64,000 bases of DNA from Methylococcales bacterium (GCA_018672285.1 JABHGC010000225.1:7153-71152); one strand, 5' to 3'; counted from the stretch's first letter, positions 1 to 57,810 are shown. Translations and numbers: made by a program. The notes: generated by a model from the sequence alone, not told the origin.

Positions 1-229
1 TTTGGGTTTGGTTTGCATTCCCTTCTAACCATGGAATCATCTTCGCCAAATACACAGGCTCACCACCGAGGACTAAACAGCGTAATGAGGCCAATTGTGC
101 CATTTCTGCTGTCGTCACAATGTGCTCATCGACCATTGAGTAAAAACTGCTCGGTGTAATATTTAAAATCGTGACATTGTGTTGGCTGATAAGTTGCAAC
201 ACACTCTTCGCTTTCGCAATTTCTTGTAA
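1..229 (-). other. Mid-A-domain sequence (post-A4, pre-A5) following the A10 motif directly with no T domain; continues off-window
   Basis: Translated ...SKEKHSLQEIAKAKSVLQLISQHNVTILNITPSSFYSMVDEHIVTTAEMAQLASLRCLVLGGEPVYLAKMIPWLEGN, which has the shape of the A4-to-A5 region (...ITVLNxTPS...LRxLxxGGE...) and not that of a PCP. Confidence 0.5.
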
Positions 230-3200
230 TGAGTGTTTCTCTTTAGACTGCTCACCAGGTTTTGGTAATGCTTTAAAATCGACTTTACCATTGGCCGTTA
301 AAGGCAATGACTCCATAACGACAAAGGCAGAAGGCACCATATAGCTCGGTAATTGTTGCTCTGATATCGCCCGTAAGTCTTCTACGCGCACCACAGAATC
401 ACTGACCAAATACACCACTAAACGTTGATCACCCTCGACATCTTCACGAATGATCGCCACATTCTCTCGAATACCAGGGTATAGCCCAACCACACTCTCA
501 ATTTCACCCAGCTCGATTCTAAAACCACGTAATTGCACTTGTGAGTCAATCCGGCGGATGTACTCCAGCTCACCACTTTCTAAGATTCTGGCCAAATCAC
601 CCGAGCGGTATAATTTACCGTCTGCAAAAGGATGCTCAATGAAACGTTCAGCCGTCAGCTCTGGTCTTTCTAAATAACCATCAGATAAACCCGCACCCGC
701 GATACACAGCTCACCAGGCACCCCTTCAGGCACAGGGTTAAGATTTTCATCTAGCACATACAACTGCAGATCAGGAATTGGCAGTCCAATGATACTGTTC
801 ATCCCCTGGCCTCTAACGGCAGAGCTCACATCATCAATTTTAATGCGGCGATAGGTCACATGAACGGTCGTCTCAGTAATACCATACATGTTCACCAATT
901 CAGGGCTGGCATCACCATGGCGTTTCACCCACGGCGCTAAATTACGTAAATCTAGTGCTTCACCACCGAAAATAACCTGACGTAATTGCAGTTGTTGGGC
1001 AATATCCGGGTTGATATTCAAGTGATATTCTTCAGCACGAATCAACTGATAAAATGCTGACGGGGTCTGGTTTAAAACAGTGACCTTCTGGTCTATCAAC
1101 ATCTGGTAGAACACATTCGGTTCGCGAGCGGTTAAATAAGGCACAACCACAATTGAGCCACCGTAGAATAATGCGCCCCATATTTCCCAAACAGAAAAAT
1201 CAAACGCATAAGAGTGGAACAAGGTCCAAACGTCATGTTCATCAAACTTGAACCATGCTTGAGTTGCAGCCATGAGCCTGACCACATTCTGATGATTAAT
1301 CATCACCCCCTTCGGTTTTCCAGTCGAACCTGAGGTATAGATGACATACGCTAAGTGTTCAGGTTTAACCGCAATATTCAGGTTCTCTTTGTCATATTCT
1401 AATAGTGCTTCCCGCTCTTGGTCTAAAACAAAAACCGAATCAATGCCGCCTTGAATTTGAGCGGCCAAGTTTGAATGTGTGATCAATAATACGGCAGCGG
1501 CATCTTTAACAATAAAGGAGACTCGGTCTTGTGGGGCACCAGGGTCTAATGGCAGGTATGCGGCCCCTGCTTTTAACACCGCCAAAATACACACAACCAT
1601 ATCCACGGAACGGTCTAAATAAAGCGCAACCAGTTGATTGCAGCTCACCCCTTCATTAACCAAATACCGAGCCAACTGATTTGCGCGCTCATTCAAGTCA
1701 TAATACGTAATATGGTTGTGCTCATACCTAACGGCAACATGGCTTGGGAAAGCCTCAGCGGCAGCTTCAAACTGGCTCGCTAGAGTAGCAACTGACTCAA
1801 ATTTCTGCTGCTTAGACACAAGATTCAAGTAATCATCAAGCTGTAACGCCGACATTAAACGAAGTTGGCCTAATTGTTTGCCCCCTTGAATAATTTGTTC
1901 AGAGAGTGCCACCACTTGTTCTAAGAATTGAAATTGCGAGAAGACCCTTGGGTGGTAATGTAAATTCAAGGTGAGCGATGACTCATCTTTCTCGATATAC
2001 AGTAAAACCTGATCTTCATCGGCTAATGTTTGCTGAGTTGAAACAACCCCCGCATCAAAAAACTCATAGTCATTTGACACACTTAAAAAGTGATAGTGGA
2101 AGGTTAATCGACCACTTTGCAACACACTACTTTGCAAGAACTCAAGTAAAGGTTCATTCGAGACAATATCGTGACGATAACGGGCAAAATACTGAAGCAA
2201 CTCTAAAACACCCGATTGCTGACCCAGCTTTTCAACCGGTACTAAGGTTGGCAAACAATCCCGGTTGTTACTAGAAGATGAAACAACCCCTAAAGCCCTT
2301 GCATCTAACTGCTCATGAATCACAAAATCTGCTTCTGGCCGGCAATATTGGCTGATCAGATACGCATAAATACTCTTAAAGTAATCATCTGGAAAAAGGT
2401 CATTTAAGCTACAAAATTCTTTAATGTCTAGTGCATGCTCAGCGCTAACCGCTACTTGGTGCTGCTGACGATAGTTACGCTCTGCGGTAAGTGCAGGGTA
2501 ATCCAACACATCCAATTGATTGATACGTTCTTGCCAATGCTTAAACACACCGGCACACTCATCACTTGGGCATAAATCATCACCATTACCCAGCAGAACC
2601 AAGTTTGCACCAACAGAGAACGTCGCAAAGAAGTTCTTCTGGCTTAAATCAAAGCAAAATGAACTTGCTAATAGCACATGATCATCGGCATTTAAATCAC
2701 ACGTTTTGGTATACCAATGAATCAAATTCGACAAGCTACGATGCGTGACTTCCACCATCTTAGGCTTACCAGTACTGCCTGAGGTATAAATAATATACGC
2801 AGGCTGACTTGCTCCGACTTGGCTCACTAAGTTAACCGAAGGCTCAATGGAAATGCCCATCCAATCGGTATCGACACATAACAGTCTGCAAGGCAAACTC
2901 ATGGGAATGTTATCCAGCTGCGACTCTTGGGTCAGCAATATGGCAGACTCGCTGTCTCCAATAATGTAACCAATCCGTTTTTCAGGATACGTGGGATCAA
3001 CAGGGACGTAAGCGGCTCCCGCCTTCAATACAGCATAAATGGAGATCACCATTTCTAATGAAGGTGACATGCAGATCGCCACATTAGAACCCCCATTAAC
3101 ACCCAGTCGTTGTAAATGATGCGCTAACTGGTTTGCCCGGCTATTCAGCTCGGTATAGGTCAATGATTGATTATTCAACGTCACTGCAGGTGAATAAGGG

Positions 3201-6200
3201 GATGCAAACACCTGTTTTTCTAGCATTTGGTGAACAGCAAAATGGCTTGGATAAACCACTTCTGTTTCGTTCCACTGATCAACCATTAAGGTCCACTCTG
3301 TCTCACTTAACATCGGTAAAGTAGAAACAGGCTGCTCAGGATCGGCGACCATGCCAGACAATAAATTATGATAATGACCAACCATATTCTCGATGCTGGA
3401 TTGATCAAATAAATCGGTATTATATTCCCAATGGAACACTAAGCCATCTGGCGTTTCATTGATCATGATGGTCAAATAAAATTTGGCCGTTTTAGTATCC
3501 GCTTCAATTGGTGAAAAGGTAAAATCACCCTGCTCCATATTCATCTCAGGCATGTTTTGTAACACTAACATCACTTGAAATAACGGAGACACATTCTGCC
3601 GACGTTCGGGCTGAATGTCGTCCACGAGTTTTTCAAAGGGGGCATCTTGATGGGCAAATGCATCTAGCGTTACTTCCCGAGCATTACGTAACAACTCTGA
3701 GAACCCAGGATTACCCGTTAAGTCACCACGGAGTACAACGGTATTCACAAACATACCAATCAATGCTTCGGTATCGGTCTGTCGACCCGCAACCGGTGTA
3801 CCAATACAAATATCTTTTTGACCCGAGTATCGTGACAACAACACTTGCAGCGATGACAATAAGGTCATAAACAGCGTTGCACCTTCATTCTGGCCAATCG
3901 TTTTCAGTTTATTCACCAAGCTTAATTCCACTTTATCGTGGCATGTTTGGCCTCGATAACGCATCACTTGTTGCCTAGGACGATCTGTTGGTAAATCTAA
4001 TATCTCAGCATCAGCAAGCTGCTCAGACCAATACGATAACTGTTGCTCAAGCACGTCACCGACCAGCCAGTTCTTTTGCCAATATGCATAATCACCATAT
4101 TGAATGGATAACGGTGGCATAGAGGTTTCATGGTTGTGAATCACCGCTTGGTAAAAATACCCAAGCTCTTTAATAAACACATGGCTGGACCAACCATCTG
4201 AGATAATGTGGTGCATATTGATGATCAACACATGCACATCATCATCCGTCTCCACTAAGGTGACGTTAAATAATGGCAACTGAGTTAAGTCAAAGGGCTT
4301 TTCAACCTCATGCCTAACCAGCTCTTCAATGGTTTTATCGGAGCTAATATCTTTGGTGATGACAGTTAATGGCACCGACATCTCGGCGTGAATTTTTTGT
4401 ACTGGCGGCTGGTTAGGCTCAACAGAAAACGTCGTTCGCAATATTTCATGACGCATGATAATGGCAGCAATCGCGTGTTCAAAGGCCTCTCTTTGCAAAA
4501 CGCCTTCCACTTTAACAGCAGCAGGCACGCTATAAGCGACATTTCCAGGTTCTAATTGATCTAAGAACCACAAACGCTCTTGTGCAAATGACAGCGGGAT
4601 CGCTACATCACGAGAAACGGCGGTAATTGCTGGTGCTTGTAAGGTTTTTTCTGTTCTCAAAACCACATCAATTGCTTGGGCAAATCCGCCGGCTGTTTCA
4701 GACTCAAACAACGTTCTTAATGGAATTTGAACTTGATATTGTTTAGATAATTTTGACACCACTTGGGTTGCCATCAATGAATGGCCACCTAAAACAAAGA
4801 AGTGATCATTGACACCGACTCGCTCAATGTTCAACGCTTCAGCCCACACATCACACACTGTTTGTTCAATACTGTTGCGTGGTGCGACATAAATCGCATC
4901 CCGATCAAGACCGGGTTCTGGTAACGCTTTACGGTCTACTTTCCCGTGTGCATTAAGTGGCATATCTGAGAGCGCCACATACTGCATAGGCACCATATAA
5001 TCAGGCAATACTTTAAGCAGAGACTGACGCGCTTGTGCCGGATCAAAGTCATCGGAAACCACATACGCCACAAGCTGATCGTGTTTGACTAAGACCGTGG
5101 TATCCGCCACGCTTTCCAGCTGACTTAGTGCCACTTCAATTTCACCAAGCTCGATACGCAAACCACGCAACTTCACCTGGAAATCGAGCCTGCCCATATA
5201 TTCTATAGTGCCATCCGCTAACCTGCGACCTAAGTCACCGGTTCGGTAAGCACGGATACTTGGCGCAAATGGTAAACTGATAAAGCTCTGTTCAGTCAGC
5301 TCTGGTTGCCCCATGTAACCGGCACCCACACAAACACCTGCGATGACGATCTCACCACAGACCCCATCAGGCACTAATTGTTGCTCTGCATTCAAGACAT
5401 ATAACGACACATTGGCAATGGCACTACCGATAGGCGGTGATGCCTGCTCATACGCTTGCGGTGCTGTAACCGTGAATGCAGCAACAACATCGGTACACTC
5501 TGTTGGGCCATAACTATTCACAATTTGAGCGACACAGCCTTCTTGTTGTAACCAACTCAACAACCGAGGCATTTGGATCGCTTCACCACCAAGCACGGCA
5601 TAACGTAGACTGGATAACTTCTCTGAATATGTTTCAGCTAACGGATACAACATACTCGGCGCACAGTTAACCGACTGAACTTGGTGTTGCAGAATCAAAT
5701 CTGCAACAAGCTCTGGCTCATAATGGGACAGCTCAGGTAATACCAAGCTACCACCGTGGCAAAGGTTAGCGAATATATTTTTCTGCGTTAAATCGAAACC
5801 AATCGAACTAATCAAGATAGAGCGGCTACTGCCATTCATATCCAAGGCATCGGCATACCAGGCAATTAAGTTAGAAAAGCTGTGTTGATACACACTGGCA
5901 CCTTTCGGCTTCCCTGTAGAACCTGATGTATAAATCGCATAGATCAACGCATTCTTCTGTGCAGAATCCACAACCACAGGTTCCGTGGTATTTACCGCTG
6001 CCTCTTCGACAATGATGACCTGTTGATCTGCAAAAGAGATGTCTTTAGCAATACGGGCTTGCGTTAACACAATCGAGACATTGGCATCGGCCAAAATATA
6101 GGACAAACGCTCTTCTGGGTAGTCAGGGTCTAATGGGATATAAGCGGCTCCAACTCTCAGGGTGGCAAAGATGCTAGCAATCATATCAACCGACCGGTGA

Positions 6201-9200
6201 CAACACACACCAATCCACTCTGGCGTGCTGTCTAATGCCATAATCGTATGAGCAATTTCATTCATACGATCATTTAATACTTGGTAACTCACCTGCTCAT
6301 TACCGGCAATGAGGGCCACTGCATTCGGAGACCGTTTCACATGCGCTAAGAATTGGTCATCTACCGATTCATATTCATCTAATTGACTAACCACTTGCTG
6401 AGAAGCAATTTGTGCTTGTGCCAACTCTGATTCTGTTAACCAGTTTAGTGCCGACACTTGTTCGGTGCCGCTTACAATTTGTTGGGCAACAAACTTAATC
6501 CGCTCTAGTAAATCTAATTGTTCAAAATGATCCGAGAATGACAATAAATTCAATTGCCAACCTGCATCCATAACCTTCACAATCATTTGTACTTGGTCTT
6601 CAGCAACAGGGGGAGAGTACTGTTGCAGTGCCTGATCCTGACCTAAGAAAGGCATTGTTGCTGCAAAATGGTAAAAGTTATAAAGAAAGGTCGTTCGAGC
6701 AGCAGGCAATAGCTGTTGCTGTACCATGACGGACAGATGACCGCGCTTTTTATCCATTTTTTGTAGCTGACGAACTTGATCAAATAATTCCGTTAAATTT
6801 AAGCTGCCATCAAACATGGCTTTGCTAAACAACACAGGCATTTGCTGATAATAACAACCCGCAGTCGCTAAGTGACCACGAGGCCTTCCAGAAAGCACTT
6901 CTGTGATGACAAAATCGTCTTCACTCCGACAAAAAACGGCCAGTGACAGTGCATACAATGATCGGAAGAACATGGTTGGTGTCATTCTGTTTTTACGACA
7001 AAATCGCTTAATGTCTTTAAATAAAGCACCTTCAATAACCAGATCAGATGCTTGATACTCCGATACAGCCGTACTGGTTGGAAAATCTAAGCGCTCTATC
7101 GTTTGTTTCTGCTGCTGCCAAAAATCGATGGCTTGAATTTTATCCACATCGTCGGCCGCAACGGTTACATAATCAAAGAAAGAGGTTGCTGACAACGGTA
7201 ATTCACAGCCCTCAGACAACGCCGTGTATTGAGCACAAATTTCTGAACAGACATGGGTCATGCCCACACCATCTAGAATAATATGTTGTGCCGCTTGCAA
7301 TAAATAATACTCATCGTCCCCTATTGCGATCACATAAAACTTAATCAGTGTCTCTTTATCAAGCTCATAAGCACGATAAGTAAATGCCTCAATCATTTTA
7401 TTGGCTTGAGCGTGTGAAGCATCACCTGCCGGTAACTCAATCACCTCAAACTCAATAGAGCGTTGCTTAGGAATACATTGATAAACAGGCTCAGCATAAG
7501 GCTGATCACAGCGTAGCAAGCGTGCACTTAAAATAGGATTATTATCCACTACCATCTGGCAAGCGCGTTGCCACACACTGGCACTAAATTCACCCTGTAA
7601 TTTCACCGCAAGACCAAGGCAGTTACGCGTGGTCTCTGGATTCACAACCGTATGAATATACAGATCCCGCTGTGTTGGCGTCAGCGGATAAACACCCAAA
7701 TAATCTTCTTGATTAAGACCAAGCACTTCATGTAAGGAGTGTTCGTTCAGCAAAGAAATTGTATTCAGAGGTTGCTCAATATTACCGACCATTTGCTCTA
7801 ATACAAACTGATAGTGCTGCATCATCACTTCAATGGTTTCAACATCGAATAAATCCGTATTAAATTCAACCAAAGCATTAAGCTGTTCACCATACTCAGA
7901 TACAGATAAAATCATATCGAACTTGGCTGTAGCCAACTCACTTTCTACCATCTCAAAAGACAACCCAGCCAGTTCAAACTCGGTATCCACAGAAGTTTCT
8001 AACGTGAAGCCCACTTGTGCTAATGGCGGGTATGACATTGAACGATCTTTGACCAAATCGTTCATAATCATCTCAATAGGGATATCTTGATGACCGTAAG
8101 CGGCCAGTGCACGCGTCCGAACAAGTTGTAAAAATTCAGATAAGGTTGGGTTGCCTGCCAAATCTGCTCGCATCAACACCACATTCACAAACATACCGAT
8201 CAATGGCTCTAATGATGCATGACTACGACCTGCAACCGGGGAGCCAACCACAACCGTCTCTTGACCTGCATATCGGCTCAATAAGATCTGATATGCCGCC
8301 AATAGATACATATACAGGGTGACACCATTGTCTTGTGCGTTTGCTTTAACCTGCTGTGAAAGTTCATCAGGCAACTGCAACCGATAACGCCGACCAATAT
8401 AGGTTTGAATATCGGGTCTTGGCCGATCAGTTGGTAAGGTCAGCTTCTCTGGTGCCCCGTCTAAAGTCTCTCGCCAAAACTGCAACATACCCGCAAGTAC
8501 ATCATCACTTAACCAGTCTCGTTGCCATATTGCATAGTCAACATACTGTACGGACAACTCAGGCAACATCGGTGATTGTTGCTGTGAATACGCTTGGTAA
8601 GCATGGCTGACCTCTTGAACCAAAACATTCACCGACCAACCATCAGACACAATGTGGTGCATGGTCAACATAACCACGTGCTCTTGTTCTGACAGCATCA
8701 CCAGTTTTGCCCGTAACAATGGGCCTTTGGTCAAATCAAAACTTAAAGCGGCATATTGCTCAGTAATGTTTTTAAGTTGTTGCTCTTTTAAATAGTCAGG
8801 CTGATCGGAGATATCTTCAACCGGAATGGTTTGAGACTTATAGTCATCAATGATTTGCACGGATTGGCTGTCAACCGTCGCAAAACGCGTTCTCAACGCA
8901 TCATGGCGTTTAATGACAAAATTGACTGATTTTTCTAACGAGACAATGTCTAACTTACCCGTTAAGCGGATGGCAGCAGGCATATTATAAACCGCATTAC
9001 CCGGCTGTAGCTGGTCTAAGAACAAAAGTCGTTCTTGAGCAAATGACAGCGGTATATTACTCGGTAATGTTTGCCTTTCAAGTACAGGCATGGGTACTTG
9101 GTCTACTTTTGCCAAAGCCAAATCAAGCTCATGCGCCAACTGTTGGATGGTTGGTTTTTCAAACACTTGGCGAACACTGAGTTCGACATTAAATCGCTCA

Positions 9201-12200
9201 CGTAATAATGCAATCATCCGTGTCACTAATAATGAATGCCCTCCAAGCTGGAAGAAATCATCGTTAACGCCAATCCGCTCATGTTTTAACAATTCACCCC
9301 ACAGGCTCGCGAGCAATTGCTCTGAATGGCTTTGAGGCGCAACAAAATTGTGCGCTTGTACTAGCGCTGATGGGTTGGGTAGTTTTGACCGATCTACTTT
9401 TCCATTCGGCGTTAATGGAAACTGTTCCAACGCAACACAATGGCTTGGCACCATATAATCAGGCAGTTGCTTGGCAACACTCAGATTAATCTCGTTCTCT
9501 TCTGCCGTGCCCACGGTATAAGCAATAATTTGCTCATCCCTAATCAGCACCAAACATTCACTCACACCCTCAATTTGGCCAATAACGGATTCAATTTCAC
9601 CTAATTCAATACGCAAACCACGCAGCTTAACTTGATGATCTGCCCGACCAACAAACAACATCTCCCCACGTTGGTTTTGTAGTACCCGGTCACCTGTTTT
9701 ATACATCTTACCGTGGCCGGTAATGTGGTTCTCAATGAAGCTTTCAGCAGTGGCAGCAGCATCCCCTAAATAACCACGCCCAACACCGAGACCTGCAATC
9801 ACCAACTCACCCACAACACCCATGGGTACAGGATTTAAATATTGATCCAACACATACAACTGAACATTATCATTGGGCAAACCAATTGGGATCGGCCCGG
9901 TTGCTGCCAACTCGTTGTCAGTCAACACATAAAATGCTGCGATATCCGTACACTCGGTCGGACCATAGGTATTCACGAGGGATACGGATTGCTGTGCTAA
10001 CCAAGGCTTAAGTTGGTTTAGCTGAATAGACTCCCCCCCTAAAAAGACCGTTTTCACAGTGGCCATTCGAGGCCAATACATTGGCTCGACGAGGGGGTAA
10101 AAAGCACTTGGCGCACTATTAATTCGTGTGACGCTATGCAATTCAATGGCTTGAGTGATTTGCTCTGGGTCGTAGAACTCTGTATCCGTAAAGCAAACAC
10201 AACCGCCACACCACAGTAACGCAAACAAGTTCTTTTGAGTTAAATCAAAACCAAGCGCACTGATGATTAACGTACTGTCGGTATCGGTAAAGGCAAACTC
10301 ATGACAATACCAGTGTAATAAATTCACAGCGCCCGCATGCTCTACACCAACCCCTTTTGGCTTGCCAGTAGAACCTGAGGTAAAGATCTGATAAATCAAT
10401 TCAGACCCGGTAAACACCAAATTGGGGTTCTCAACAGAGAACTCGGCAATATCGGTTAAACCATCTATTGCTAACCAAGCAGTTGTTTTATCCAGCTTAT
10501 CAATAACAGATTGGTCACTTAATACTGTTTTTATCGCCGCATTATCTAAAATATACTCAATTCGGGATTGTGGATAATTAGGGTCAATCGGCACATAACA
10601 ACCACCTGCTTTTAATACCGCCAATATCGCAACCAACACATTGGTTGAAGGAGGCAGACAAATGGCCACCGCTTGCTCAGGGTTTAATCCGTCCTTAATG
10701 AGCTTATGCGCTAATTGATTGGCACGCTCATTAAGCTGTTGATAGCTCAGTTTCGTATTCTGATAAGCGGTTGCAATATGATCAGGTGTTTTTTCGACTT
10801 GCTGCTCAAAACCTTGGTGCACTGCTGTGTAGGGTGCATCGGGTTGCTTTTCAGTCGCATTGTAGTCTGTGGTTAATGCCGCTAAAGCCGACTCACTGAG
10901 CATGTTGATTTGGCCAATAGAACCTGCTGCGTTATCCACCATCGCCTGCACTATATTTTGCAAGTGTTCAACCATATTGACAATGGTCGATGCCGCAAAT
11001 AAATCAGTGTTGTACTGTAAACTCCCCGTGATCTGGTCATCACTTTCAACAAGATTCAAGACCAACTCAAACTTAGCAATTCCCATGTCTAAGTCATACG
11101 GTTCTACCACAATATTCGGTAACTCAACGCGTTCATCACCTAAATTTTGCATTGAAAACATCACTTGGAAGACCGGCGACCGCGCCATATTACGTGGCAC
11201 ATTTAACACATCGACTAATTTATCAAACGGTAAATCCTGGTACTGGTAAGCGTCTACTGAGTCCTGTTTTAACTGCTGTAGTAATTCGCTAACACTGGGG
11301 TTAGCCGTAAAATCCGCACTGATCGCTTGAGTATTAACAAAGAAACCGATTAAAGGTGCCACTTCAGGATAATGCCGACCCGCTATGGGTGTGCCAACAG
11401 CAAATTGGTCTTGGTCGCTATATCGATGCAATAAAATTTGGAATGCGGCCATTAAGGTAATAAACAGCGTGCAGTCGTTATCCACAGCCAATTGTTTTAG
11501 CCCAGCGGATAATGATTCTGGCAGTACAATCGCTTGCTCAGCCCCATTAAACGTTTGATTAACTGGTCTTGGGAAATCAGTATTCAGTTCTAGCGCAGGC
11601 ACATCGGCGAGCTTTTGCGTCCAATATTGTATCTGCTCAGCAAGCACCTCCCCTTGTAACCACGCTCGTTGCCAATGTGCAAAATCTTTAAATTGGATAT
11701 CTAATGCGGGTGGCACACTTGGTATGCCTTGTACATCTGCACTGTAATACTCTATCAATTCTCTAACGAGCACACCAACAGACCAACCATCTGACACACT
11801 GTGATGCATGGTAACTAGTAATAAGACTTCATCCTCACCTGAACAGACAAAAGCACGAATCAAAGGCCCTTGTGTGAGTGAGAACGGTTTACTCGCTGCA
11901 GAGATGACCTGAGACTGATAGAACTGAGCGGCATCACCTTCCACATTCACACTAACAAAAGGAATATCTAGCGTTGTTTGTACCCGCTGAATCGGCACCC
12001 CATCCAGTGTGGTAAACGTGGTACGTAACACGTCATGACGAGCCACAATTGTATTTAATGCCCGCTCAATGGCCGCAATATTGACATCCCCTTTGAGCAT
12101 GACGGCAGCGGGAATATTATAAGCTGAGCTATTGGGCTCTAATTGATCAATAAACCACAATCGCTCTTGAGAGAAAGATAGTGGCGCATCCACCCCTTCA

Positions 12201-15200
12201 GCTAACGGTACAATTTCAGGTATATCTTGAGTATCGTTTTGATATTTGGCCACCGCTAATGCTAAAGCTTTAACCGTGGTCGACTCGAATAAGACTTTAA
12301 GTGGTATATCTACTTTGAACTGCGTTCTAATGGAAGCGATCAGTTGCGTCGCCAATAATGAATGGCCACCTAACGCAAAGAAATTATCTTCAATGCCCAC
12401 TTTACTGACCGATAATAACTGCGACCACATTTGACACAACTGAGCTTGCAGCTCATTTTCGGCCGCTACATATTGATCATGACTGGCTGAATCTGGTTTT
12501 GGTAATGCTTTTCGATCCACTTTACCATTACCCGTAAGCGGTAAAACAGGCAGTTGTAAAATGGATGAAGGCACCATATACGCAGGTAACTTATCGCCTG
12601 CAATGGTTTTTATTTGTTCAATATCCGCATCATGATTGGCAACCAAATAAGCGGTTAACCGTTGATCACCCGGAATATCCTCTCGGACAATAACGACAAC
12701 TTCTTCAACGCCTGCAATCTCAGCAATAACAGATTCAATTTCACCTAACTCTATCCGGAAACCACGAATCTTGACTTGAGAATCTATTCGACCTAAATAC
12801 TCAATACCACCATCTGGTAAATGCCTCGCTAAATCACCCGAACGATATAATTTACCGTCAGTAAACGGGTTCTCAACAAATTTCTCAGCGGTAAGCTCAG
12901 GGCGGTATAAATAGCCCCGTGCCAGACCTGCCCCGCCAACACACAACTCACCAGGAATGCCGATAGGCACTAATTGCAAATCACTATTGACGATATACAC
13001 TTGTAAATCAGGAATTGGCACCCCAATAATACTGCTGACAGCAGCCCCTTGTTTTGCCAGCGCCACATCTTCTGCGGTAACAACACGATAGGTCACATGT
13101 ACAGTAGTTTCAGTAATACCATACATATTCACTAAGGTTGGGAACTGATCACCATGCACATCAAACCAGCTGTCAAGCTGTTTAAAGTCCAGCGCTTCAC
13201 CACCGAAGATAACATAGCGTAAAGCCACCGCGTTCTCAGTATCACAATTGCTCAGCAGGTGCTGCTCAGCTCGGATTAGTTGGTAAAATGCTGATGGAGT
13301 CTGGTTGAGCACGGTGACTTTTTTATCCACCAATAACTGATAAAATGCCTCCGGCTCACGACTAATAAGGTAAGGCACCACAACCACTTCACCGCCATAG
13401 AATAAGCCACCCCATATTTCCCAAACTGAAAAATCAAACGCATACGAATGGAACAACGTCCATACGTCAGTCTCATCAAACTCATACCACTCATGCGTCG
13501 CATCCATTAAGCGAACAGCTTGTTGGTGCTCAATTTGAACACCTTTCGGTTTGCCAGTGGAGCCTGAGGTGTAAATCACATACGCGAGGTGTTCTGGTTG
13601 AATTAACAGATAGAGCGGTTCTGTTGATAACCCGCTTAAACGGTCGTCATCTAGCAACACAGTGTCCACTGATGATGCCAGCTGATCTTGTAAATCTTGC
13701 TCAGTAATCACGAATACGGCTTTCGCATCTTCAACAATAAATGCAATTCGATCATTAGGCGCACTAGGGTCTAATGGCAAGTAGCCTGCACCTGATTTGA
13801 GCACCGCTAAAATGGCAACAACAATATTGATAGAACGATTACAATACAAGCCGATCAAAACATCATTTGTTGCCCCTTTTTCAACCAATAGGCGAGCGAG
13901 TTGATTTGACTGTTGCTCCAGCTCGGCATACGTTAATTGGCCATATTCATCACTAACCGCAATGTTACCTGGGAAACGCTTGACACTAGATTCAAACCGA
14001 TCCACCAGTGTATCTGCCGTCGGATATGCTTGGTATGGGTATAAATGATTGATTTGATCACTTTGTTCTTGAAGTGTAATCCAAGGTAAATCATGTAACC
14101 TTTCCGCACCATCTAAACAGCGTTCTGTCAAAAGCACCAGGCGATCTAGCAAGCCTAAGTCATTAAAGTAATCACTATGGTAATGCAGGTTGAGTACCAC
14201 ATCGTCATAACCGGCATTAATGACGAGATGCACTTGGTCATCAAAAAATAACGGAATTTGTTGTTCTAATTCTGTTTTTTGACCTAAGAAATCTAACTCT
14301 GCTGCAAACCCATACAGGTTGAAGAAGAAATTAATTTTATCCGATGGCATGAGCTGGCGTTGTTCAAATACAGAGAAATTTTTATGCTCGCCCAAGGCCC
14401 GCTGATAGCCTCGTATAAAAGTGAAATAATCGGTTAGTAAAGTCTCACTATTGACTAAGTCTTTCGGAATAATAATCGGGGTTTGCTGATAATAACAGCC
14501 TATCCCTTTGAGGTGCTCTTTAACCCGGCCACCGACAATTTCATAAAAGCCGTAGTCTGAATCGGGTAAGCAGTATTCTTTTAATAATAAAGCATAGAGA
14601 GACTTCAATAATAACGATGGGGTTAACCGGTTTCGGCGACAATACTTCTTAATCGCAGCCCATTTTTCTTTATCAATAGAGGCTTGTACATGCACTTTTT
14701 CATGCTGGGTATTCGGCAACCATTGAAACGATAATGGCTCCACGCTGGCCGATTTTTCGCGCCAGTAGGTTTTTGTGTCCTGCAAATCAAAACTTTCAAT
14801 ATTATTTTTGACATAGCTTGGGAAAACATTCGGCAGTGGCTCATAGTCTTCATTAGCGAGCAAGCTACTCATGACCTTATTCAGCTCTAGCGCATGCAAC
14901 GTACCTGAGGTGCCATCCATTAATAAATGGTGTGATGAAATCACAAAGACATAATGCTCTTGGCTGATTTTAAGTAAGGCATTTCTATGCAGTGGGTCAA
15001 CATCAATGGCATACGGCTGATACACAAATTGATGAATCATATCGTCAACTTGCTTAGAGGTTAATCGGTCTTCTAAGTAGTCTATATAGGTAAAATCGAC
15101 TTCGTAGTCTTTTTTGTGCGCTTGATATACCGGTGCTAAATACGGTTTATTCACAGCATGTAACGTTGTTCTCAAGACTGGATGTGCATCGGCTAATTTT

Positions 15201-18200
15201 TGTAACGATTGTCGCCATACATCAGGGTCTGTTTCTTGATGGATGTGCAACACATAACCCAAACTGTTCATGGTGGTTTCTGGATTCATTTTTGAATCTA
15301 GATACAAATCACGCTGCGTGACGGTTAACGGTAAGATGGCGTCAAAGTCAGTCTCATCAATGCCTAATTCAGCGCACAGTTGCGCTTCTGGCATAACGGC
15401 TAACCAGTTAATATGAGAATCAGGTGTTTCTATGGCCGCATCCAGCAAGTGCAAATACGCTTGTGCCATGGTGGCAATGGTCTGTTCATCGAATAAATCG
15501 GTATTGTATTCCCATAACCCGCTATAGCCTTTCTGCCCTTCTAACACCATCAAGGTCATATCATATTTAGAACCACCTGCATCTAGCTCAACCGGTGATA
15601 ACACTAAGTCTGCTAAGGTAACCGTTTCAATTGGCGTATTTTGCAAAGCAAAGCCTACTTGAACAATGGGGCTATAGCTTAAGTTACGCTCAGGGCTTAA
15701 CGCTTCAATCACTTGTTCAAACGGCACATCTTGATGAGCAAGCGCTTGCAGAACAACGTCTTTTTGGCGTAACAACAACTCGGCAAACGTTGGGTTATTA
15801 TCCAGTGACGTTCGCATCACCACCCCATTAACGAAATAGCCCATTAATGCTTGCACGGCTTCTTGTTGGCGCCCTGCAATTGGGCTACCAATGACCATAT
15901 CGGTCATCCCAGAATACCTAGACAGCAAGACATTATAAGCAGCCAGTAACAGCATATAAGGCGTAATATTTTGTGCTTGACAGAACCCACTAATTTTATC
16001 TTGCAGCTGTGCCGGCACGTCAAAACGGTGCTGACACCCATTGAAGGTCATCTGTGCGGGTCTTGGCCGGTCTGTCGGTAAGTTCAGTAATGCCGGACTG
16101 TCTTTTAAGGTCTCAGTCCAAAAATCCAACTCTTGCTGCAGTCTGCCCCCAACCAACCATTTCCGCAGCCAAATAGAATAATCAACATACTGGACGGGCA
16201 GTGTGTGCAATTCAGCGGCGGTGCCTTCACTGAATGATTTGTACAAACTCGCCACTTCAGCAACCAGCAAACCAATAGACCAGCCATCTGAAATAATATG
16301 ATGCTGGTTGATGGACAGAATATGTGACGTTGCAGTGACTTTAATTAAACTAATGCGATACGCAAGCTCTGAGTTTAAATCGAAAGCGGTTCTCGCATCT
16401 TCAAGTACGGCTTGATTAGCGTCTACTTGAGGCTGCTCAGATTCACTTAAATCCAGGCTAAACCAAGGCAACTCAACAGTGTCTTGCACCAAGACTTGTG
16501 GAACCCCCTCATCATTACCAAACTGAGTGCGAAACACTTCATGCCGCTCAATGATGGCCTTAAAGCTGTTTTGTAACCATTCAACATTCAGTTGGCCAGT
16601 TAATTCAACGGCAAAATGGATGTTATAAATGGCCGACTGCTCATATTGCTGCACAAACCATAACCGCTCTTGTGCATACGACAGAGGCAATGCACCTTCT
16701 CGTTCAACAGCTACTAATGGTAATTCATCAACCCCCTTCTCAGACAATTGCGCGCAAAAATCGGCCAATACTGGGTGGTCAAAAATAACCCTAAGTGGTA
16801 ATGCCACATCAAAAATCTGCTTCACTTTAGCCGTCAATTGAGTCGCCAGTAATGAATGACCACCAAGCTCAAAAAATTGATCGGTTAAACCCACTTGCGC
16901 TTGCTGCAAAAGCTCCGACCAAAGCACTGCCATTTGCTGCTGTTCATCGGTTTCAGGTGCAACATAATCTTCGTTTGAACGCACTTGAAATTCAGGTGCA
17001 GGTAATGCTTTACGGTCTATTTTTTCATTCGGTGTGAGTGGAAACTCCGTCAAGCTAACAAAGGCAGCCGGCACCATATAATCCGGTATATCTTGCTTTA
17101 ATTGATTTCGCAGTTCATCCGCTGCAATATCCTCATTGTCAGGGATCACGTAAGCCACTAAACGCAGTTCGCCAGATGCGTCTGGGCGAGTCACAACAAC
17201 CGCTTCTTTTACACTGGTTTGCAGGCTTAATAACGCCTCAATTTCACCCAGCTCTACTCGGAAGCCACGCACTTTCACTTGGGTATCACTTCGTCCTAGG
17301 CACAACAAAACGCCATCCGGTAAATAACGTGCCAAATCCCCCGTTTTATAGATTCGGCCCGCCTGAGTAAACGGGTTATCAATGAAGACTTCTGCGGTTA
17401 AATCTGCACGGCCATGATAACCACGGGTAACACCGTCACCACCAATATACAGATCACCCACTGCACCGAGTGGTACAGGTTGTAGCAGCTCGTCTAAGAT
17501 ATAAATTGAGGTATTACCAATCGGCCGGCCAATGGTAATTTGCTCACCAGCAACCACTTTTGCAACGCTTGACCAAATCGTTGTTTCCGTAGGACCATAC
17601 ATATTCCACAGCTCGATTAATGGCTGTGCGGTTAATTGACTGGCCAGTGCCTCTGGTAGTGGCTCACCACCACACAGTACTTTAAGTGATTTTTTCACCT
17701 GCCAATTGGCATCCAATAACAGCTTCCACGTTGCAGGCGTCGCTTGCATAACGCTAATGGCTTGCTGCTCTATCGTTGTCGCCAGCAGTTCTCCATCCAT
17801 TGCCAAGTCCCGGTCAGCAATATAAACAGATGCCCCCGTAATTAACGGCAACCACAGCTCTAAGCCTGCAATATCAAATGACAATGAAGTCACAGATAAC
17901 AAGCGATCTTGTTGTTTAAACCCAGGTGTCTGGCGCATACCATACAAAAAGTTAAGCAACTGCTGATGCTCAACTTCAACCCCCTTAGGCTTACCGGTTG
18001 AACCGGACGTATAGATCACATACGCTAGGTTATTTGGCTGTACAGGCCAGTCAGAGTCAGAAATAGTCTGATCCAACACCTCATCCCAATCGGCATCGAT
18101 AAAGACGCGAGTTAAATTGTCTGGTCCTAATGTTGGCAAGTGCAGTTCGGTAACCAACACCGAGACACCACCATCTTCTAGCATGTAATCTAATCTGTCT

Positions 18201-21200
18201 TGTGGATACAGAGGGTCTAGAGGGACATAAGCACCACCGGCTTTAGCAATGGCAAGCATCGCAACCAACATACGGACAGAGCGCTCCACACACAAACCGA
18301 CCAATTGATCAGGCTGAACCCCAAGGCTCATTAAACGACTGGCCAATTGGGCACTTTGTTCATCAAGTTGACGATAGCTAATTGAAACCTTTGCATCAGC
18401 CGCAGCGATCTCTTCAGGGTATTTAAGTGCCTGCCCTGAAATAATTTGGACGATGGTTTTACTGCTAGGGTAATCTAACGACGTTTCATTCCAAGTCTCC
18501 AGCAACAAGCTTTGTTCTGTGCCAGTCAACATGGGTAACGCATAAACAGACTGTTCTGGCTGTGCTAAAAGGTGCCCTAACAGCTCAACAAAGTGCGCTG
18601 AAAAACGCTCGATGGTTTCCCTTGAAAATAAATCGGTTCGGTATTCAAAGCTGGCTTCATACACCCCTGATTTTTCTGCCAGCTCCAAGCTTAAATCATA
18701 TTTTGAAATTTTCTGATGAGCAGGTACTAACTTGACCTCAACATCAGACAATAACTGACTCACATCCACTTCTGGTGTGTTTTGCAAGGTAAATAAGGTT
18801 TGAAATACGGGTGTGTAACTTGTATCTCGTGTGACCTTAAGTGCATCTACCAATTTTTCAAATGGAATATCTTGATTGGCATACGCATCTAATGAAAACT
18901 GTCTGACCTGTTGAATTAAGGCATTAAAGCTCACCTGCTTTGCGACATCACCCCGGTAAGTCAATGTGTTAATAAACAGACCTAACATAGATTGTGTTTG
19001 CGCTTGTCCACGACCAGCAATCGGGCTACCCACGCAAATATCGTCCTGTCCGGCATAACGTGCCAGCATCACCATGTAGGCACTCATCAAGACCATAAAT
19101 GGCGTTGCCTCTTGCAGCTTAGCATGCAGGTTAATCGCATCATGTAAGCTTGCAGGTAAGGTAAAGTGTAACAACTCACCTTGGTACTGCTGCACTGCAG
19201 GTCTTGAGAAATCCGTGGGGAGATTTAACGTGGTACTTCCTGCCAACGCTTTTTGCCAAAATGCAATTTGCCCGGTTAAACGCTCACCAGACAGCCAGTC
19301 ACGTTGCCATAATGCATAATCTGCGTACTGCAACTCAGGCATTTCAAGCGCCTGCTCACCTTCAGTTTGCTTCTGCTGGTAAAGTGAAATCCACTCTGAA
19401 ATAAACACGCCTAAAGACCAGCCATCAGCAATAATATGGTGCATCACAAACACCAACACGGACTCTTCTTCATCTTCTGACATCAGGTAACGATTCACAG
19501 AAAATAAAGCTGGTTGCTGCAAATCAAAGACTTGTCGTGCACATTGATCAATCCGACTGCGTAGCGTTTGCTCAGGCAGAGCCATTGCCGACAGATCTTC
19601 AGTCGCAATGGTTACGCTCAGTTCAGGATAGATCACCTGCATTGCAACCCCATCAACGGATTCGAAGCCCGTTCTGAGCACTTCATGTTTCGCGATTAAT
19701 TGGTTTAATGCCCAAGTTAAATCTGCAGTATCAACCTTGCCTCTCATGCGTAATGCACCTGGCATATTGAACACATGCCCATCGTCATTAAAGTTTTGCA
19801 AGAACCACAAACGTTCTTGTGCAAATGACAATGGGATGCTGTCTGGCCGTTGCTGGTTGGCCATATCAACAATCGCATCTGCGGATTTCGCTTGTTCTAA
19901 TGCTCTTGCAAGTGCTTCAACCGTGGGATTTTCAAACAATGTCCGCAACTGAATTTGAGCGTGATAGTCCGCTTCCACTTTGGCAATCAGTTGTGTGGCT
20001 AACAAGGAATGCCCACCTAAGGTAAAGAAATTATCCAGCAAGCCTACTTTATTAACTTGCAGCAACTGGCTAAATAACGTAGCAACGTCTTTCTCCAGTG
20101 CTGTTCGTGGTGCCACGTAGCCTTGTCCTGAAGCCTCAGGGTCAGGTAGTGCCTTACGATCCACTTTGCCATTAGGTGTGAGTGGGTATTTTTCCAACAC
20201 AACAATATGATTGGGCACCATATATTCTGGTAATGCTTGGCGACAAGCTAATGCCATATCGGTTGGGTTTGCACTGCCGATGACATAAGCGACTAATTGG
20301 TCTTTCTTAACAATAACCAAGCTCGCATCAACACCCTCACCATAGCTGATGACGTTTTCTATTTCCCCTAATTCAATTCTCAACCCACGTAATTTCACTT
20401 GGTGGTCAATTCGGCCAACAAAGATGATTTGCTGGTCGACATCCAAACGGACTAAATCACCCGTTCGGTACATTTTACCTTCATTGCGGAATGGATCAGG
20501 TATAAACACCTTATCCGTTTGCCCATCATCATTAAGATAACCTCGGCCAACCCCTCTTCCGGCAATATAAAGCTCACCAACCACACCACGAGGGACCGGT
20601 TGACGAGCGGCGTTTAAGATATAGAGGTACACATTGTCATTTGCTTGGCCAATAGGCATGGGTTGATTGGCGTAATCATTGGCGTTATTCAGGGTAAAGC
20701 TAGCGGCAATATCAGTACACTCTGTCGGCCCATACATATTCACCAATTTGGCATCATGGGTCGTTAACCAGACTCGTAGCTGGTTCATTTGAATCGGCTC
20801 ACCACCAAAAAACAAGGTACGCAGTGAGTTAAGTTGACCTGCTGTTTCTTGCTCGACTAAAGGGTAAAAGGCACTTGGCGCACAATTTAATAAGCTGATA
20901 TCAAATGCCTTAATGGCACTCAGTATCGCTTTAACATCATAATGGGCAGACCCGGTGAAACACACTGAGCCACCTTGCCATAATGCCGCAAATAAATTCT
21001 TTTGCGTTAAATCAAAACCTAAAGCACTGATAATTAAGCTGTGGTCAGTGTCTGACATTGCATATTCACGGGTATACCACTGGAGTAAGTTCGTCATACC
21101 AGCGTGTTCAACGCCCACACTCTTCGGCTCTCCAGTCGAGCCTGACGTAAAGATTTGATACAGCAGTTGGGTATCGAGGATATTGCGATCTGGGTTACTC

Positions 21201-34153: not shown

Positions 34154-34171
34154 GCTAAAAGGTAGCAACAG

Positions 34172-34474
34172 ATGGCAAAAATTTTAGTGGTTGATGATGC
34201 CGAAATGATTCGCAAACTCATGTCCGCATTCTTTTCCAAACACGGCATTACTGTCACCACAGCAGTCGATGGCATGGACGGCTTTAACAAACTGAAAGCT
34301 GACCCTGAAATCAAATTGGTTTTTGCTGACGTCAACATGCCAGAATTAAATGGGCTAGCTATGGTTGAAAAAATTCGCAACGAACTTGAAACCGAAGCGG
34401 TTATTTTGATGCTCACCTCAGAAAACAGCAACGAAATGAAAGAACGAGGAAGAGCGCTTGGCGTCAAAGGCTGA
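34172..34474 (+). CDS. CheY-like receiver domain protein, ended by an in-frame TGA before the conserved KPF lysine. The reading frame continues to 34534.
   Basis: MAKILVVDDAEMIRKLMS...FADVNMPELNG...LMLTSE...GVKG then TGA at 34472-34474. The same frame continues as VVKPFNDPNVINLVKKIVA and ends at a TAA at 34532-34534. Confidence 0.7.
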   Translation: MAKILVVDDAEMIRKLMSAFFSKHGITVTTAVDGMDGFNKLKADPEIKLVFADVNMPELNGLAMVEKIRNELETEAVILMLTSENSNEMKERGRALGVKG

Positions 34475-34704
34475 GTCGTAAAACCCTTTAATGACCCCAA
34501 TGTCATTAATTTAGTGAAAAAAATTGTTGCATAAGCTGCAAACACAGCCTAAAAAAAAGCGGCACTCTCATGTTACCTCCCCGGCGCCACACCAAGTTTT
34601 AGCACGCCATGCACGCGCTTCAGCCAACATCAACAGCATTGCTTGATATACCCAGCTGTAGTAGTTTAAACCCATAAAAAAACGACATTGAGCACAACGC
34701 CGCC

Positions 34705-36717: not shown

Positions 36718-36725
36718 ATAGCGGC

Positions 36726-37466: not shown

Positions 37467-37539
37467 GAGTGAATTACCTTAAATTTGACCACAGCAGGTC
37501 AGTTCGTCATTATGGCCTTTTGTTCAAAGCCGCCATCTA

Positions 37540-51921: not shown

Positions 51922-52123
51922 TTAAACCCCAGCACAATGACCATGACTTAATGTCAGCAATATAAATGGGTGTACAAATATTTTATGAGTGATGTTAAAA
52001 ACAATTTAGACTTTTGTAACGCAGAAACATTATCCAATGCACTGATACTCATTAACATGACCAAGGTCATAAGACAGAAGGGTTAAGTGGGTTTTACGGT
52101 GCTTCAGTCTCAATAACGAGCAA

Positions 52124-57801: not shown

Positions 57802-57810
57802 ACCAAGACG

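What the first reader, a model, noticed from the sequence alone, without database searches (positions are those of the whole stretch)
1..4640. Abnormal 3'-proximal region: A domain truncated after A4, fused in-frame to a C' fragment and a complete A domain, then directly to mid-A-domain sequence
After C8 (HH at about 4200), an A domain runs only from A1 to just past A4 (...FDLSQKNFFATFSVGANLVLLGNG). The next 750 nt align block-by-block with the post-HH two-thirds of the module-5 C' domain. A complete A domain (A1 to A10, 1800-230) follows. After its A10 (LPLTANGKVDFKALPKPGEQ) the frame continues into sequence typical of the A4-to-A5 interval (...VTILNITPSS...LRCLVLGGEP...) instead of a T domain. 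This looks like a [ΔC'-A] cassette nested inside a host A domain at the A4/A5 junction. Alternatively it is two deletion joins or a chimeric repeat assembly. Either a natural module-shuffling intermediate has been caught in-frame, or the assembly is wrong exactly where the contig ends.
Basis: seen in the sequence. Interest (0 to 1): 0.65.

Follow-up and report, generated by a model that had tools for sequence, protein, structure and literature searches.

The report
Adenylation domain nested inside another
In a 13,010-residue peptide-synthetase gene of an uncultured Methylococcales bacterium, one amino-acid-activating domain is split in a surface loop by an in-frame insert. The insert is half a condensation domain plus a second, complete threonine-activating domain; I found no earlier example of this arrangement, and it does not look like an assembly error.

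Summary
On the minus strand, the module-8 A domain runs from motif A1 to just past A4 (window 3319-2582; Pfam AMP-binding positions 2-237). It resumes at window 247-2 (positions 245-299).

Between the two halves lie 778 in-frame codons:
- The C-terminal lobe only of the gene's unusual second condensation domain (C'), window 2581-1802.
- A complete A domain with the canonical Thr code DFWNIGMVHK, window 1801-248.

The tail is not a carrier domain. The window edge is not a contig end: a 108-kb JGI contig with the same gene order carries this gene as a 13,010-residue product, about 2,042 residues beyond the window.

Misassembly is unlikely. Both joins are in frame, the two host halves fit exactly, no exact repeat longer than 17 nt touches a join, and composition is uniform.

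Both A domains look intact. The C' remnant is the most divergent of 80 family members but keeps full length, and is modelled docked on the nested A as in normal C-A modules.

None of 976 other A domains scanned has such an interruption, and none of 84 other C' lobes is an internal orphan.

Best reading: a real insertion of a C-lobe-plus-A unit. Its function is unknown. I found no independent assembly or ortholog covering the joins.

The parts
2..32905 (-). In-window part (10,968 residues) of one giant NRPS gene. Layout: FAAL-ACP-C loading, then modules in the pattern (C-A-T)(C-C'-A-T) three times, then module 8. The gene runs off the window start.
   Evidence: Single open frame. Motif map. Pfam on the N-terminus. 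A JGI contig with identical gene order calls a 13,010-aa product starting at this ATG.
3320..4627 (-). C8: ordinary condensation domain of module 8 (C1 motif LSFAQERLW; HHIISDG at 4213-4193).
   Evidence: Pfam PF00668 5-443/456, E=1.2e-112. No epimerase motifs anywhere in the protein.
2582..3319 (-). Host A domain, N-terminal part (motifs A1-A4), ending ...FCFDLSQKNFFATFSVGANLVLLGNG. It supplies specificity residues D235, L236 and K239.
   Evidence: Pfam AMP-binding 2-237/384, E=1.1e-52. 33-39% identical to the same part of 8 paralogs. As similar to external A domains (211 bits, 42%) as intact paralogs of its clade (184-213 bits).
2579..2584 (-). Join 1: host ...GNG | DDLCPSDECAG... (the insert starts at 2581). 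In frame, with no repeat or microhomology.
   Evidence: Sequence; repeat scan.
1802..2581 (-). C' remnant: only the C-terminal (acceptor-side) lobe of a C'-family condensation domain. It starts about 50 residues after where HHxxxDG would be. There is no N-lobe and no catalytic motif. The HMM match spans 2548-1847.
   Evidence: C' C-lobe HMM: 166.5 bits over positions 4-239/248, against 245-264 for the three intact C' of this gene, at least 178.8 for 76 external ones, and 15-28 for ordinary C domains. No N-lobe hit. Keeps 17/23 family-conserved and 20/47 gene-conserved positions. Folds as a C-lobe in the AF2 model.
248..1801 (-). Nested complete A domain (A1-A10 plus the C-terminal subdomain). 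Stachelhaus code DFWNIGMVHK (Thr). Ends ...LPLTANGKVDFKALPKPGEQ.
   Evidence: Pfam AMP-binding 1-384/384, E=1.2e-91, and AMP-binding_C 1-76/76. Motifs. Code identical to the module-5 A domain, with 55% identity to it. As similar to 120 external A domains of this type as module 5's A (49% vs 48%).
245..250 (-). Join 2: ...KPGEQ | SKEKHSLQ..., in frame. There are about 8 extra linker residues relative to uninterrupted paralogs.
   Evidence: Sequence. Alignment of host N+C with the insert removed.
2..247 (-). Host A domain resumes (A4-A5 interval: ...VLQLISQHNVTILNITPSSFYSMV...LRCLVLGGEPV...). It supplies specificity residues N278, V299 and G301. Cut by the window edge before motif A5.
   Evidence: Pfam AMP-binding 245-299/384. 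Matches A4-A5 intervals of paralogs. No PP-binding hit, and no Ser in 'LGGEP'. Host code DLKNVG matches the first six positions of the module-7 A domain, DLKNVGSDVK.

Best explanation
This is a real genomic arrangement, most simply made by one insertion event.

What was inserted, and where. A DNA segment encoding the acceptor-side lobe of a C'-type condensation domain plus its cognate Thr-activating A domain was captured in frame. It landed in the strand-to-helix loop that follows core motif A4 of the module-8 A domain. The gene is a 13,010-residue lipopeptide synthetase of an uncultured Methylococcales bacterium.

How it folds. The guest folds on its own as a normal 'C-lobe + A' unit. The C' remnant is non-catalytic and serves as the structural platform that A domains normally lean on. 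The guest hangs from the host's surface loop while the two host halves re-associate around it, as in known interrupted A domains.

What it does (inferred, not shown). The host A (code DLKNVG..., substrate unknown) stays in the canonical position next to the module's carrier domain and is the default loader. The nested A is still a competent Thr-adenylating enzyme. It either also reaches that carrier domain, giving alternative residues at this position, or is a tolerated passenger.

Shown versus inferred:
- Shown: the anatomy, the reading frame, the intact motifs and codes, the predicted fold of the guest, and the continuation of the gene.
- Inferred: a single insertion, folding of the host around the guest, and any catalytic activity.
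For: - Exact complementarity of the host halves: Pfam 2-237 then 245-299. With the insert removed, the host is colinear with 8 paralogs.
- The specificity code is split across the join, yet equals the first six positions of the module-7 code (DLKNVG).
- Both joins are in frame within a stop-free 10,976-codon frame. The gene continues to 13,010 aa on a 108-kb contig.
- No exact repeat longer than 17 nt at the joins, or longer than 19 nt for window 1-4700 against the rest of the window.
- GC, GC3 and synonymous-codon usage of the insert lie inside the range of the rest of the gene.
- The nested A has all core motifs, the canonical Thr code and undiminished similarity to outside relatives. The host N-part is likewise undiminished.
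- The C' remnant starts at the lobe boundary and keeps the full lobe length and 17/23 family-conserved residues. It is nevertheless the lowest-scoring of 80 lobes. That pattern fits retained structure with lost catalysis.
- AF2 model of the insert: pLDDT 82, pTM 0.82. It superposes on EntF C-A-T with TM 0.83 and 4.1 A rmsd over 813 alignment columns, so the remnant docks on the A domain as in normal modules.
- The loop equivalent to the insertion site in the nested A is a strand-loop-helix junction with locally low confidence (block mean 69).
- Literature: the C-terminal C subdomain carries the C-A interface and can restore A-domain behaviour (bioRxiv 10.1101/2021.08.23.457306). A domains tolerate guest domains in loops (PMC8949500).
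- The remaining 2,042 residues fit the rest of A plus T (about 293), plus C-C'-A-T (1,473-1,509), plus TE (about 250-280). This continues the gene's periodic pattern (lengths). It is inference only, and C-A-T-C-TE fits equally well.
Against: - This is a single instance. I found no ortholog, no second assembly and no reads spanning either join.
- The host's A5-A10 and its T domain lie outside the window, so its completeness is unverified.
- No known interrupted A domain carries a guest this large, of this kind, or at this site.
- There is no obvious biosynthetic need for two A domains in one module.
- The nested A is not followed by a carrier domain.
- The lower score of the C' remnant could reflect a divergent donor rather than time spent in place; one intact C' lobe scores 178.8. 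The age of the event, and hence selection for it, is not established.
Confidence: 0.55

Rival explanations
1. The insertion is real but is a non-functional scar. An accidental in-frame capture of NRPS DNA broke the module-8 A domain. The frame is kept only because downstream modules and the TE still need translating, or because the event is recent. Module 8 is dead or skipped, and the nested A does nothing.
For: No homolog with this architecture among 976 A domains and 85 C' lobes, nor in the protein searches. There is no carrier domain after the nested A. The C' remnant is the most divergent member of its family and has lost gene-conserved motifs such as GCYYQQ. Partial A-domain recombinants are usually inactive in the laboratory (PMC7486941).
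Against: All ten core motifs and a perfect Thr code are kept in the nested A, and the host code is intact on both sides of the join. Neither A is more diverged from outside relatives than working paralogs. A useless 778-codon insert would be expected to shrink by in-frame deletion, yet the C-lobe is full length and is modelled with a confident fold. None of this excludes a very recent event.
Confidence: 0.25
2. Two separate in-frame deletions collapsed three ancestral modules: (C-A-T)(C-C'-A-T)(C-A-T). The first ran from mid-A of module 8 to mid-C' of the next module. The second ran from the end of that module's A to mid-A of the module after it. On this reading the two 'host' halves come from different A domains.
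For: The gene's periodic (C-A-T)(C-C'-A-T) pattern would place a C-C'-A(Thr)-T module after module 8, as module 5 follows module 4. The nested cassette resembles module 5's C'-A (47% identity).
Against: It needs two illegitimate events, both in frame, whose breakpoints in two different A domains fall within 8 profile positions of each other. A single insertion gives this automatically. Both halves are of the same 'FDLSQKN / GGEP' clade and together give one coherent code. There are no repeats or microhomology at either join.
Confidence: 0.1
3. Assembly artefact: a chimeric contig joined unrelated NRPS fragments.
For: The source is a metagenome. NRPS genes are repetitive, and another assembly of the same organism broke inside this gene (a 9.65-kb contig covering codons 3851-7067 of the frame). 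No independent assembly covers the joins.
Against: A chimera would have to leave and re-enter the same A domain at the same residue, in frame both times. There is no shared k-mer of 20 nt or more to cause it. Composition and codon usage are uniform. The frame stays open about 2,042 further codons. The inserted piece has no near-identical copy in the window; its best paralog is 47% identical at the protein level.
Confidence: 0.08
4. The last 229 nt encode a carrier (PCP) domain, so the arrangement is simply ...A-T.
For: Only the superficial 'LGGEP' string.
Against: Pfam gives AMP-binding 245-299 and no PP-binding hit. Alignment scores are 97-109 against A4-A5 intervals, versus 34-45 against A-T linker plus T. 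There is no serine at the attachment position.
Confidence: 0.01

Closest known systems
Interrupted adenylation domains: A domains hosting a methyltransferase, ketoreductase, oxidase or monooxygenase domain, e.g. TioS, TioN, MarQ, IndC (review PMC8949500; Labby et al. 2015 cited there)
   Same: An A domain whose core motifs are split by a whole guest domain placed in a loop, all in one reading frame. The host is expected to fold around the guest.
   Different: Known guests are tailoring domains. They sit between a8 and a9, or exceptionally between a2 and a3. Here the guest is half a condensation domain plus a second complete A domain (778 aa), and the site is between a4 and a5, inside the stretch that encodes the binding pocket. 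Activity of host and guest is untested.
XUC exchange units and the C(acceptor subdomain)-A interface (Bozhuyuk et al. 2019, as described in bioRxiv 10.1101/2021.08.23.457306)
   Same: The guest begins at the linker between the N- and C-terminal lobes of a condensation domain. This is the point used to cut engineered XUC units so that the C-lobe/A-domain interface stays intact. The model docks the remnant on the A domain in the canonical way.
   Different: XUC units are C(acceptor lobe)-A-T-C(donor lobe), placed between modules. This piece stops after A10, lacks T and the donor lobe, and sits inside another A domain.
Natural A-domain and A-subdomain recombination in NRPS evolution (Calcott et al. 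2020, PMC7486941; Baunach et al. 2021, PMC8097286, listed)
   Same: Movement of A-domain-containing DNA within and between synthetase genes, with breakpoints in the C-A region.
   Different: Those events replace homologous sequence, with hotspots at C/A, A2-A4 and near A5. Here nothing is replaced: foreign sequence is added at a non-homologous point, without repeats or microhomology.
C-C'-A-T modules of uncharacterised metagenomic NRPSs (e.g. P0267, P0150 = MCG8315621.1 from a Pseudomonadales MAG)
   Same: The remnant belongs to this C' family (166 bits against 15-28 for ordinary C domains), and like intact C' domains it is followed directly by an A domain.
   Different: All 73 intact C' domains keep their N-lobe and sit directly after an ordinary C domain. 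This one has only the C-lobe and sits after an A-domain fragment. The function of C' itself is unknown.

Membership tests
Interrupted adenylation domain | A-domain core motifs split by an inserted, separately folding domain in the same polypeptide | tested here: met
   Pfam AMP-binding 2-237, then 778 aa, then 245-299. Colinear with paralogs once the insert is removed.
Interrupted adenylation domain | Insertion between a8-a9 (or a2-a3) | tested here: not met
   The insertion lies after a4 (FDLS) and before a5, between specificity positions 239 and 278.
Interrupted adenylation domain | Guest is a tailoring domain (MT, KR, Ox, monooxygenase) | tested here: not met
   The guest is a C'-family C-lobe plus a complete A domain.
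Interrupted adenylation domain | Host A domain complete (a5-a10) and followed by a carrier domain; host active | not testable with these tools
   The sequence beyond the window start is not available. Only the product length (13,010 aa) is known.
NRPS adenylation domain (nested copy) | Core motifs A1-A10, a C-terminal subdomain, and Lys517 | tested here: met
   AMP-binding 1-384 plus AMP-binding_C 1-76. Motifs. Code DFWNIGMVHK ends in K. Model matches solved A domains.
Threonine-specific A domain | Stachelhaus code DFWNIGMVHK | tested here: met
   Exact match by alignment to GrsA. That this code means Thr is from established knowledge, not tested biochemically.
C'-type condensation domain | C-terminal lobe of the family | tested here: met
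   166.5 bits over 4-239/248 of a family HMM, against 15-28 bits for ordinary C domains.
C'-type condensation domain | N-terminal lobe with (H/N/Q)HxxxDG, directly preceded by an ordinary C domain | tested here: not met
   No N-lobe hit. All 73 intact members have both features.
XUC-like unit (C acceptor lobe-A-T-C donor lobe) | Starts at the inter-lobe linker of a C domain | tested here: met
   The remnant starts about 50 residues after the HH position, at HMM position 4 of the C-lobe.
XUC-like unit (C acceptor lobe-A-T-C donor lobe) | Contains T and the next C donor lobe | tested here: not met
   The cassette ends about 10 residues after A10, with no PP-binding or Condensation hit after it.
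Carrier (PCP) domain for window 2-247 | PP-binding profile match and GG(H/D)S serine | tested here: not met
   Only AMP-binding is matched. 'LGGEP' has no Ser.
Repeat-driven assembly chimera | Shared exact sequence of at least assembler k-mer length at the joins; frame and domain register random | tested here: not met
   Longest shared exact match at the joins is 17 nt. Both joins are in frame and in register. Read-level evidence is not available.

The most novel reading that the evidence does not exclude
A working 'A-in-A' module: two active adenylation domains in one NRPS module. The guest (Thr) and the host (unknown substrate) both serve the single downstream carrier domain. The module would then install alternative residues, or supply Thr for the unexplained C'-type chemistry. 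This would be the first interrupted A domain whose guest is another A domain. It would also reveal an insertion-tolerant site in the A4-A5 loop.
Probability: 0.22. Interest if true: 0.8.

Novelty: new variant of a known kind. Interest (0 to 1): 0.58.

Why it matters
If the arrangement is real and tolerated, three things follow:
- The A4-A5 loop of an adenylation domain can carry an insert of nearly 800 residues. That is a new permissive site for engineering these enzymes.
- The unit 'acceptor lobe of C plus A' can move and fold as one piece in nature. This is the unit that engineers chose empirically (XUC).
- It would be a rare snapshot of non-homologous insertion, rather than homologous swapping, as a route by which assembly lines change.

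If both A domains are active, it would be a new way to put two substrate choices into one module. If it proves to be a dead scar, it is still a useful natural control for what such enzymes can survive.

Tried and rejected
1. Finding the source contig or orthologs. Two scans of genome contigs and two of metagenome contigs returned only unrelated A domains. The last genome scan included a neighbouring kinase as a positive control. The control also failed, so the source genome is not in that collection.

2. Protein database searches.
- Three word-index searches found no near-identical fragment across either join. Hits were never longer than about 1.75 times the query, so longer fragments may be invisible to this tool.
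- The exhaustive search of representatives gave no self-hit, and no protein aligning through join 1.
- The only same-organism protein found was P0216 (MBT5228779.1). It covers only codons 3851-7067 of the frame.

3. Last 82 aa as a PCP: rejected.

4. 'C' domains as epimerases, which would make T-E-A abnormal: rejected. There are no E motifs, and all carry the C1 motif LSFAQERLW.

5. Target-site duplication or microhomology at the joins: none.

6. Foreign composition of the insert: none.

7. Natural proteins that start at the same C'-lobe boundary (P0150, P0171). P0150's gene starts at base 15 of its contig, so it is an edge truncation. P0171 was not looked up; I assume it is likewise truncated from its similar N-terminal profile.

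8. C' as an 'interface' domain of beta-hydroxylase-partnered NRPSs, recalled from Reitz et al. 2019. That paper is not held. 63/73 C' keep the second His of the motif, which argues for a catalytic domain. Left open.

9. Modelling host plus guest together. MAFFT put every helper sequence on the nested A, so the host would have had no alignment. The job was not submitted.

10. Using the low score of the C' remnant as proof of an old event. I weakened this claim after finding one intact C' lobe at 178.8 bits, and seeing that the remnant keeps 17/23 conserved positions.

Full report
**What is there.** The minus strand of window 2-32929 is one uninterrupted frame of 10,976 codons, with an ATG at 32905. 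Motif and Pfam mapping show a lipopeptide-type NRPS.
- It starts with a fatty-acyl-AMP-ligase-like domain, an ACP and a C domain.
- Modules then follow the pattern (C-A-T)(C-C'-A-T), three times.
- C' is a second, divergent condensation-family domain. Its C1 motif is PLTxxQRD, and its catalytic motifs are HHVMLDG, HHLLMDG and QHIILDG.
- There are no epimerase motifs. Every 'C' has LSFAQERLW.
- The finding concerns module 8, the last one in the window.

**Check of the observation.**
- C8 (window 4627-3320): Pfam Condensation 5-443/456.
- A-domain fragment (window 3319-2582): AMP-binding profile positions 2-237 of 384, ending just after FDLS (motif A4).
- Window 2581-1802 (260 aa): no Pfam family.
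- Window 1801-248: a full A domain, AMP-binding 1-384 and AMP-binding_C 1-76.
- Last 82 residues of the window: AMP-binding positions 245-299.

BLAST against the protein itself agrees.
- The host N-part is 33-39% identical to the same part of the other A domains.
- Frame codons 10131-10916 align with module 5's C'-A at 47% identity.
- The tail aligns with the A4-A5 interval of four paralogs.
- The tail scores 97-109 against those intervals, but only 34-45 against A-T linker plus T. It lacks the carrier serine.

With the insert removed, the host is colinear with eight paralogs and has about eight extra residues at the join.

**The window edge is not a contig end.** The neighbouring histidine-kinase protein occurs on a 108,326-bp JGI contig (sample 3300072015). 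That contig has exactly the gene order of the window. The adjacent NRPS gene starts at the same ATG and is called as 13,010 residues. The frame therefore stays open for about 2,042 residues (6.1 kb) beyond the window.

DNA for that contig could not be fetched. The same organism appears at 99.7-100% nucleotide identity in an NCBI MAG and four ENA assemblies, but only as 2-4.6-kb contigs at the 5' end of the gene. One 9.65-kb MAG contig encodes frame codons 3851-7067 with 100% identity. It is named 'Methylococcales bacterium' (MBT5228779.1).

**Artefact or real?**
- A chimeric assembly would have to leave the host A domain and return to it at the same residue, in frame both times.
- The longest exact repeat between the join neighbourhoods and the rest of the window is 17 nt. 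For the whole of window 1-4700 it is 19 nt. That is shorter than any assembler k-mer.
- The insert's nearest relative in the window is only 47% identical at the protein level.
- GC, GC3 and synonymous-codon usage of the insert fall within the spread of the rest of the gene.
- I found no reads or second assembly across the joins. Authenticity therefore rests on internal evidence, which I rate as strong (artefact about 8%).

It requires two illegitimate, in-frame events whose breakpoints in two different A domains coincide within eight profile positions. An insertion gives that for free.

The two host halves are of the same clade (FDLSQKN..., NITPSS..., GGEP). Together they give DLKNVG, identical to the first six code positions of module 7's A domain, DLKNVGSDVK. 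Neither join shows duplication or microhomology. I favour a single insertion, but cannot exclude the other model (about 10%).

**State of the parts.**
- *Nested A.* It has all core motifs and the canonical Thr code DFWNIGMVHK, the same as module 5. It is as similar to 120 external A domains of this type as module 5's A is (49% vs 48%, a set biased towards the nested A).
- *Host N-part.* Its best external match (211 bits, 42%) equals those of intact paralogs of its clade (184-213 bits).
- *C' remnant.* I built HMMs of the two lobes from 67 external C' domains.
  - It scores 166.5 bits over nearly the whole C-lobe. The three intact C' of this gene score 245-264, 76 external ones score at least 178.8, and ordinary C domains score 15-28.
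  - It keeps 17 of 23 family-conserved positions, where the external range is 18-23.
  - It keeps 20 of 47 positions invariant among the gene's own three C'.
  - It has lost, for example, the GCYYQQ stretch.
  - It is the only one of 85 C' lobes in the set that lacks an N-lobe without an obvious edge explanation. Of the two others, one is a confirmed contig-edge truncation and the other looks like one.

In short, the remnant is clearly of the family, full length, somewhat relaxed and certainly non-catalytic. One intact lobe scores nearly as low, so I do not treat this as proof of age.

**Rarity.**
- Among 976 A domains whose N-part is complete, in the roughly 560 proteins fetched, only this one has a large interruption at the site.
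- The exhaustive search of 1.84 billion representatives found no protein aligning through join 1.
- The literature held here describes guests only of the tailoring type, at a8-a9 or a2-a3 (PMC8949500).

**Structure.** I ran an AlphaFold2 model of the 789-residue insert with a 13-row alignment.
- It has mean pLDDT 82.3 and pTM 0.82. The low-confidence loops fall where the remnant has lost family motifs.
- Foldseek superposes it on complete C-A(-T) structures over about 800 alignment columns. The best match is EntF in the thioester-forming state (TM 0.83, rmsd 4.1 A).
- The remnant is therefore predicted to fold as a C-lobe and to dock on the nested A as in ordinary modules.
- In the nested A, the loop equivalent to the host's insertion site is a strand-loop-helix junction with a local dip in confidence. 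This is consistent with a flexible loop.
- I could not model host and guest together, because the helper sequences all aligned to the nested copy.

**How it most likely works.**
- *Shown:* the anatomy, frame, intact motifs and codes, predicted fold of the guest, and continuation of the gene.
- *Inferred:* a 'C acceptor lobe + A' unit was captured in a surface loop of the module-8 A domain. This is the unit that preserves the C-A interface, which is reported to support A-domain behaviour. The unit folds independently, and the host reassembles around it as in other interrupted A domains.
- The host is in the canonical place to load the module's carrier domain.
- The nested Thr A has no carrier of its own. 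It either also serves that carrier or is a passenger.
- My probabilities: about 0.55 for a real, tolerated insertion with at least structurally intact domains; about 0.25 for a dead scar; about 0.22 for the strongest reading, that both A domains are active in one module.

**Length of the unseen remainder.** The 2,042 residues match the rest of A plus T (about 293), plus C-C'-A-T (1,473-1,509), plus TE (about 250-280). That continues the periodic pattern. C-A-T-C-TE fits as well, so this is only a consistency check.

**Comparison and novelty.** It works like an interrupted A domain but fails two of that family's usual features, the site and the kind of guest. Its guest boundary matches the engineered XUC cut point, but it lacks T and the donor lobe. 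It is not the homologous A-domain swapping documented in nature (PMC7486941). I file it as a new variant of a known kind: domain insertion into an A domain.

**Limits.**
- It is a single metagenomic instance.
- The joins are not independently confirmed.
- The host's second half is unseen.
- No function has been tested.
- The role of C' domains is unknown.

Noticed in passing
window 21647-22984, 14054-15394, 6416-7753 (minus strand): Modules 3, 5 and 7 carry a second, divergent condensation-family domain (C') between the ordinary C and the A domain. In 150 metagenomic NRPSs, all 73 C' domains sit directly after an ordinary C, and 63/73 keep xHxxxDG. The closest solved structure by sequence reaches only E=1.7e-12 (McyB C1). 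This C-C'-A-T module type seems widespread and uncharacterised; its function is unknown.
   Followed up: partly
window A domains with A3 motifs at about 21151, 10384, 5932 and 2788 (minus strand): Four A domains, including the host, belong to an 'FDL(T/S)QKN ... GPTECTD' clade with code DLKN(F/V)G.D(I/V)K, which I could not assign to a substrate. 51 of 73 C' domains in other NRPSs are followed by this clade.
   Followed up: partly
window 2-32905 (minus strand) and beyond: The gene product is 13,010 residues (about 39 kb) on the JGI contig, among the largest bacterial proteins. Its modules follow a regular (C-A-T)(C-C'-A-T) repeat, with predicted Gln, Gly, ?, Gly, Thr, ?, ? residues after a fatty-acyl start.
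   Followed up: partly
window 6416-7753 (minus strand): The module-7 C' has QHIILDG instead of HHxxxDG. The second His is kept.
   Followed up: no
window 33182-38403: Next to the NRPS start lie a histidine kinase and response regulator (33182-34474), a 670-aa chlorophyllase/PETase-like alpha/beta hydrolase with no NCBIfam match (34705-36717), a HetI/Sfp-type phosphopantetheinyl transferase (36726-37466) and an HpnD-like presqualene/phytoene synthase (37540-38403).
   Followed up: no
window 42310-43473 (+): A 387-aa JmjC_2 cupin protein lies 9 kb from the NRPS. It is probably a YcfD-like ribosomal oxygenase among housekeeping genes. As an Fe/2OG oxygenase it could in principle be an NRPS tailoring partner.
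   Followed up: no
window 47780-61150: An unusual density of large signalling proteins: a 1,171-aa and a 743-aa hybrid histidine kinase, and a 722-aa protein with a C-terminal Ser/Thr kinase domain.
   Followed up: no
tool behaviour: Hits of the search for homologous proteins were never longer than about 1.75 times the query length (1931/1106, 220/128, 349/200). Long partial proteins of the same gene, such as the 3,217-aa P0216, could not have been seen by these searches. Absence of a join-spanning fragment there is therefore weak evidence.
   Followed up: partly
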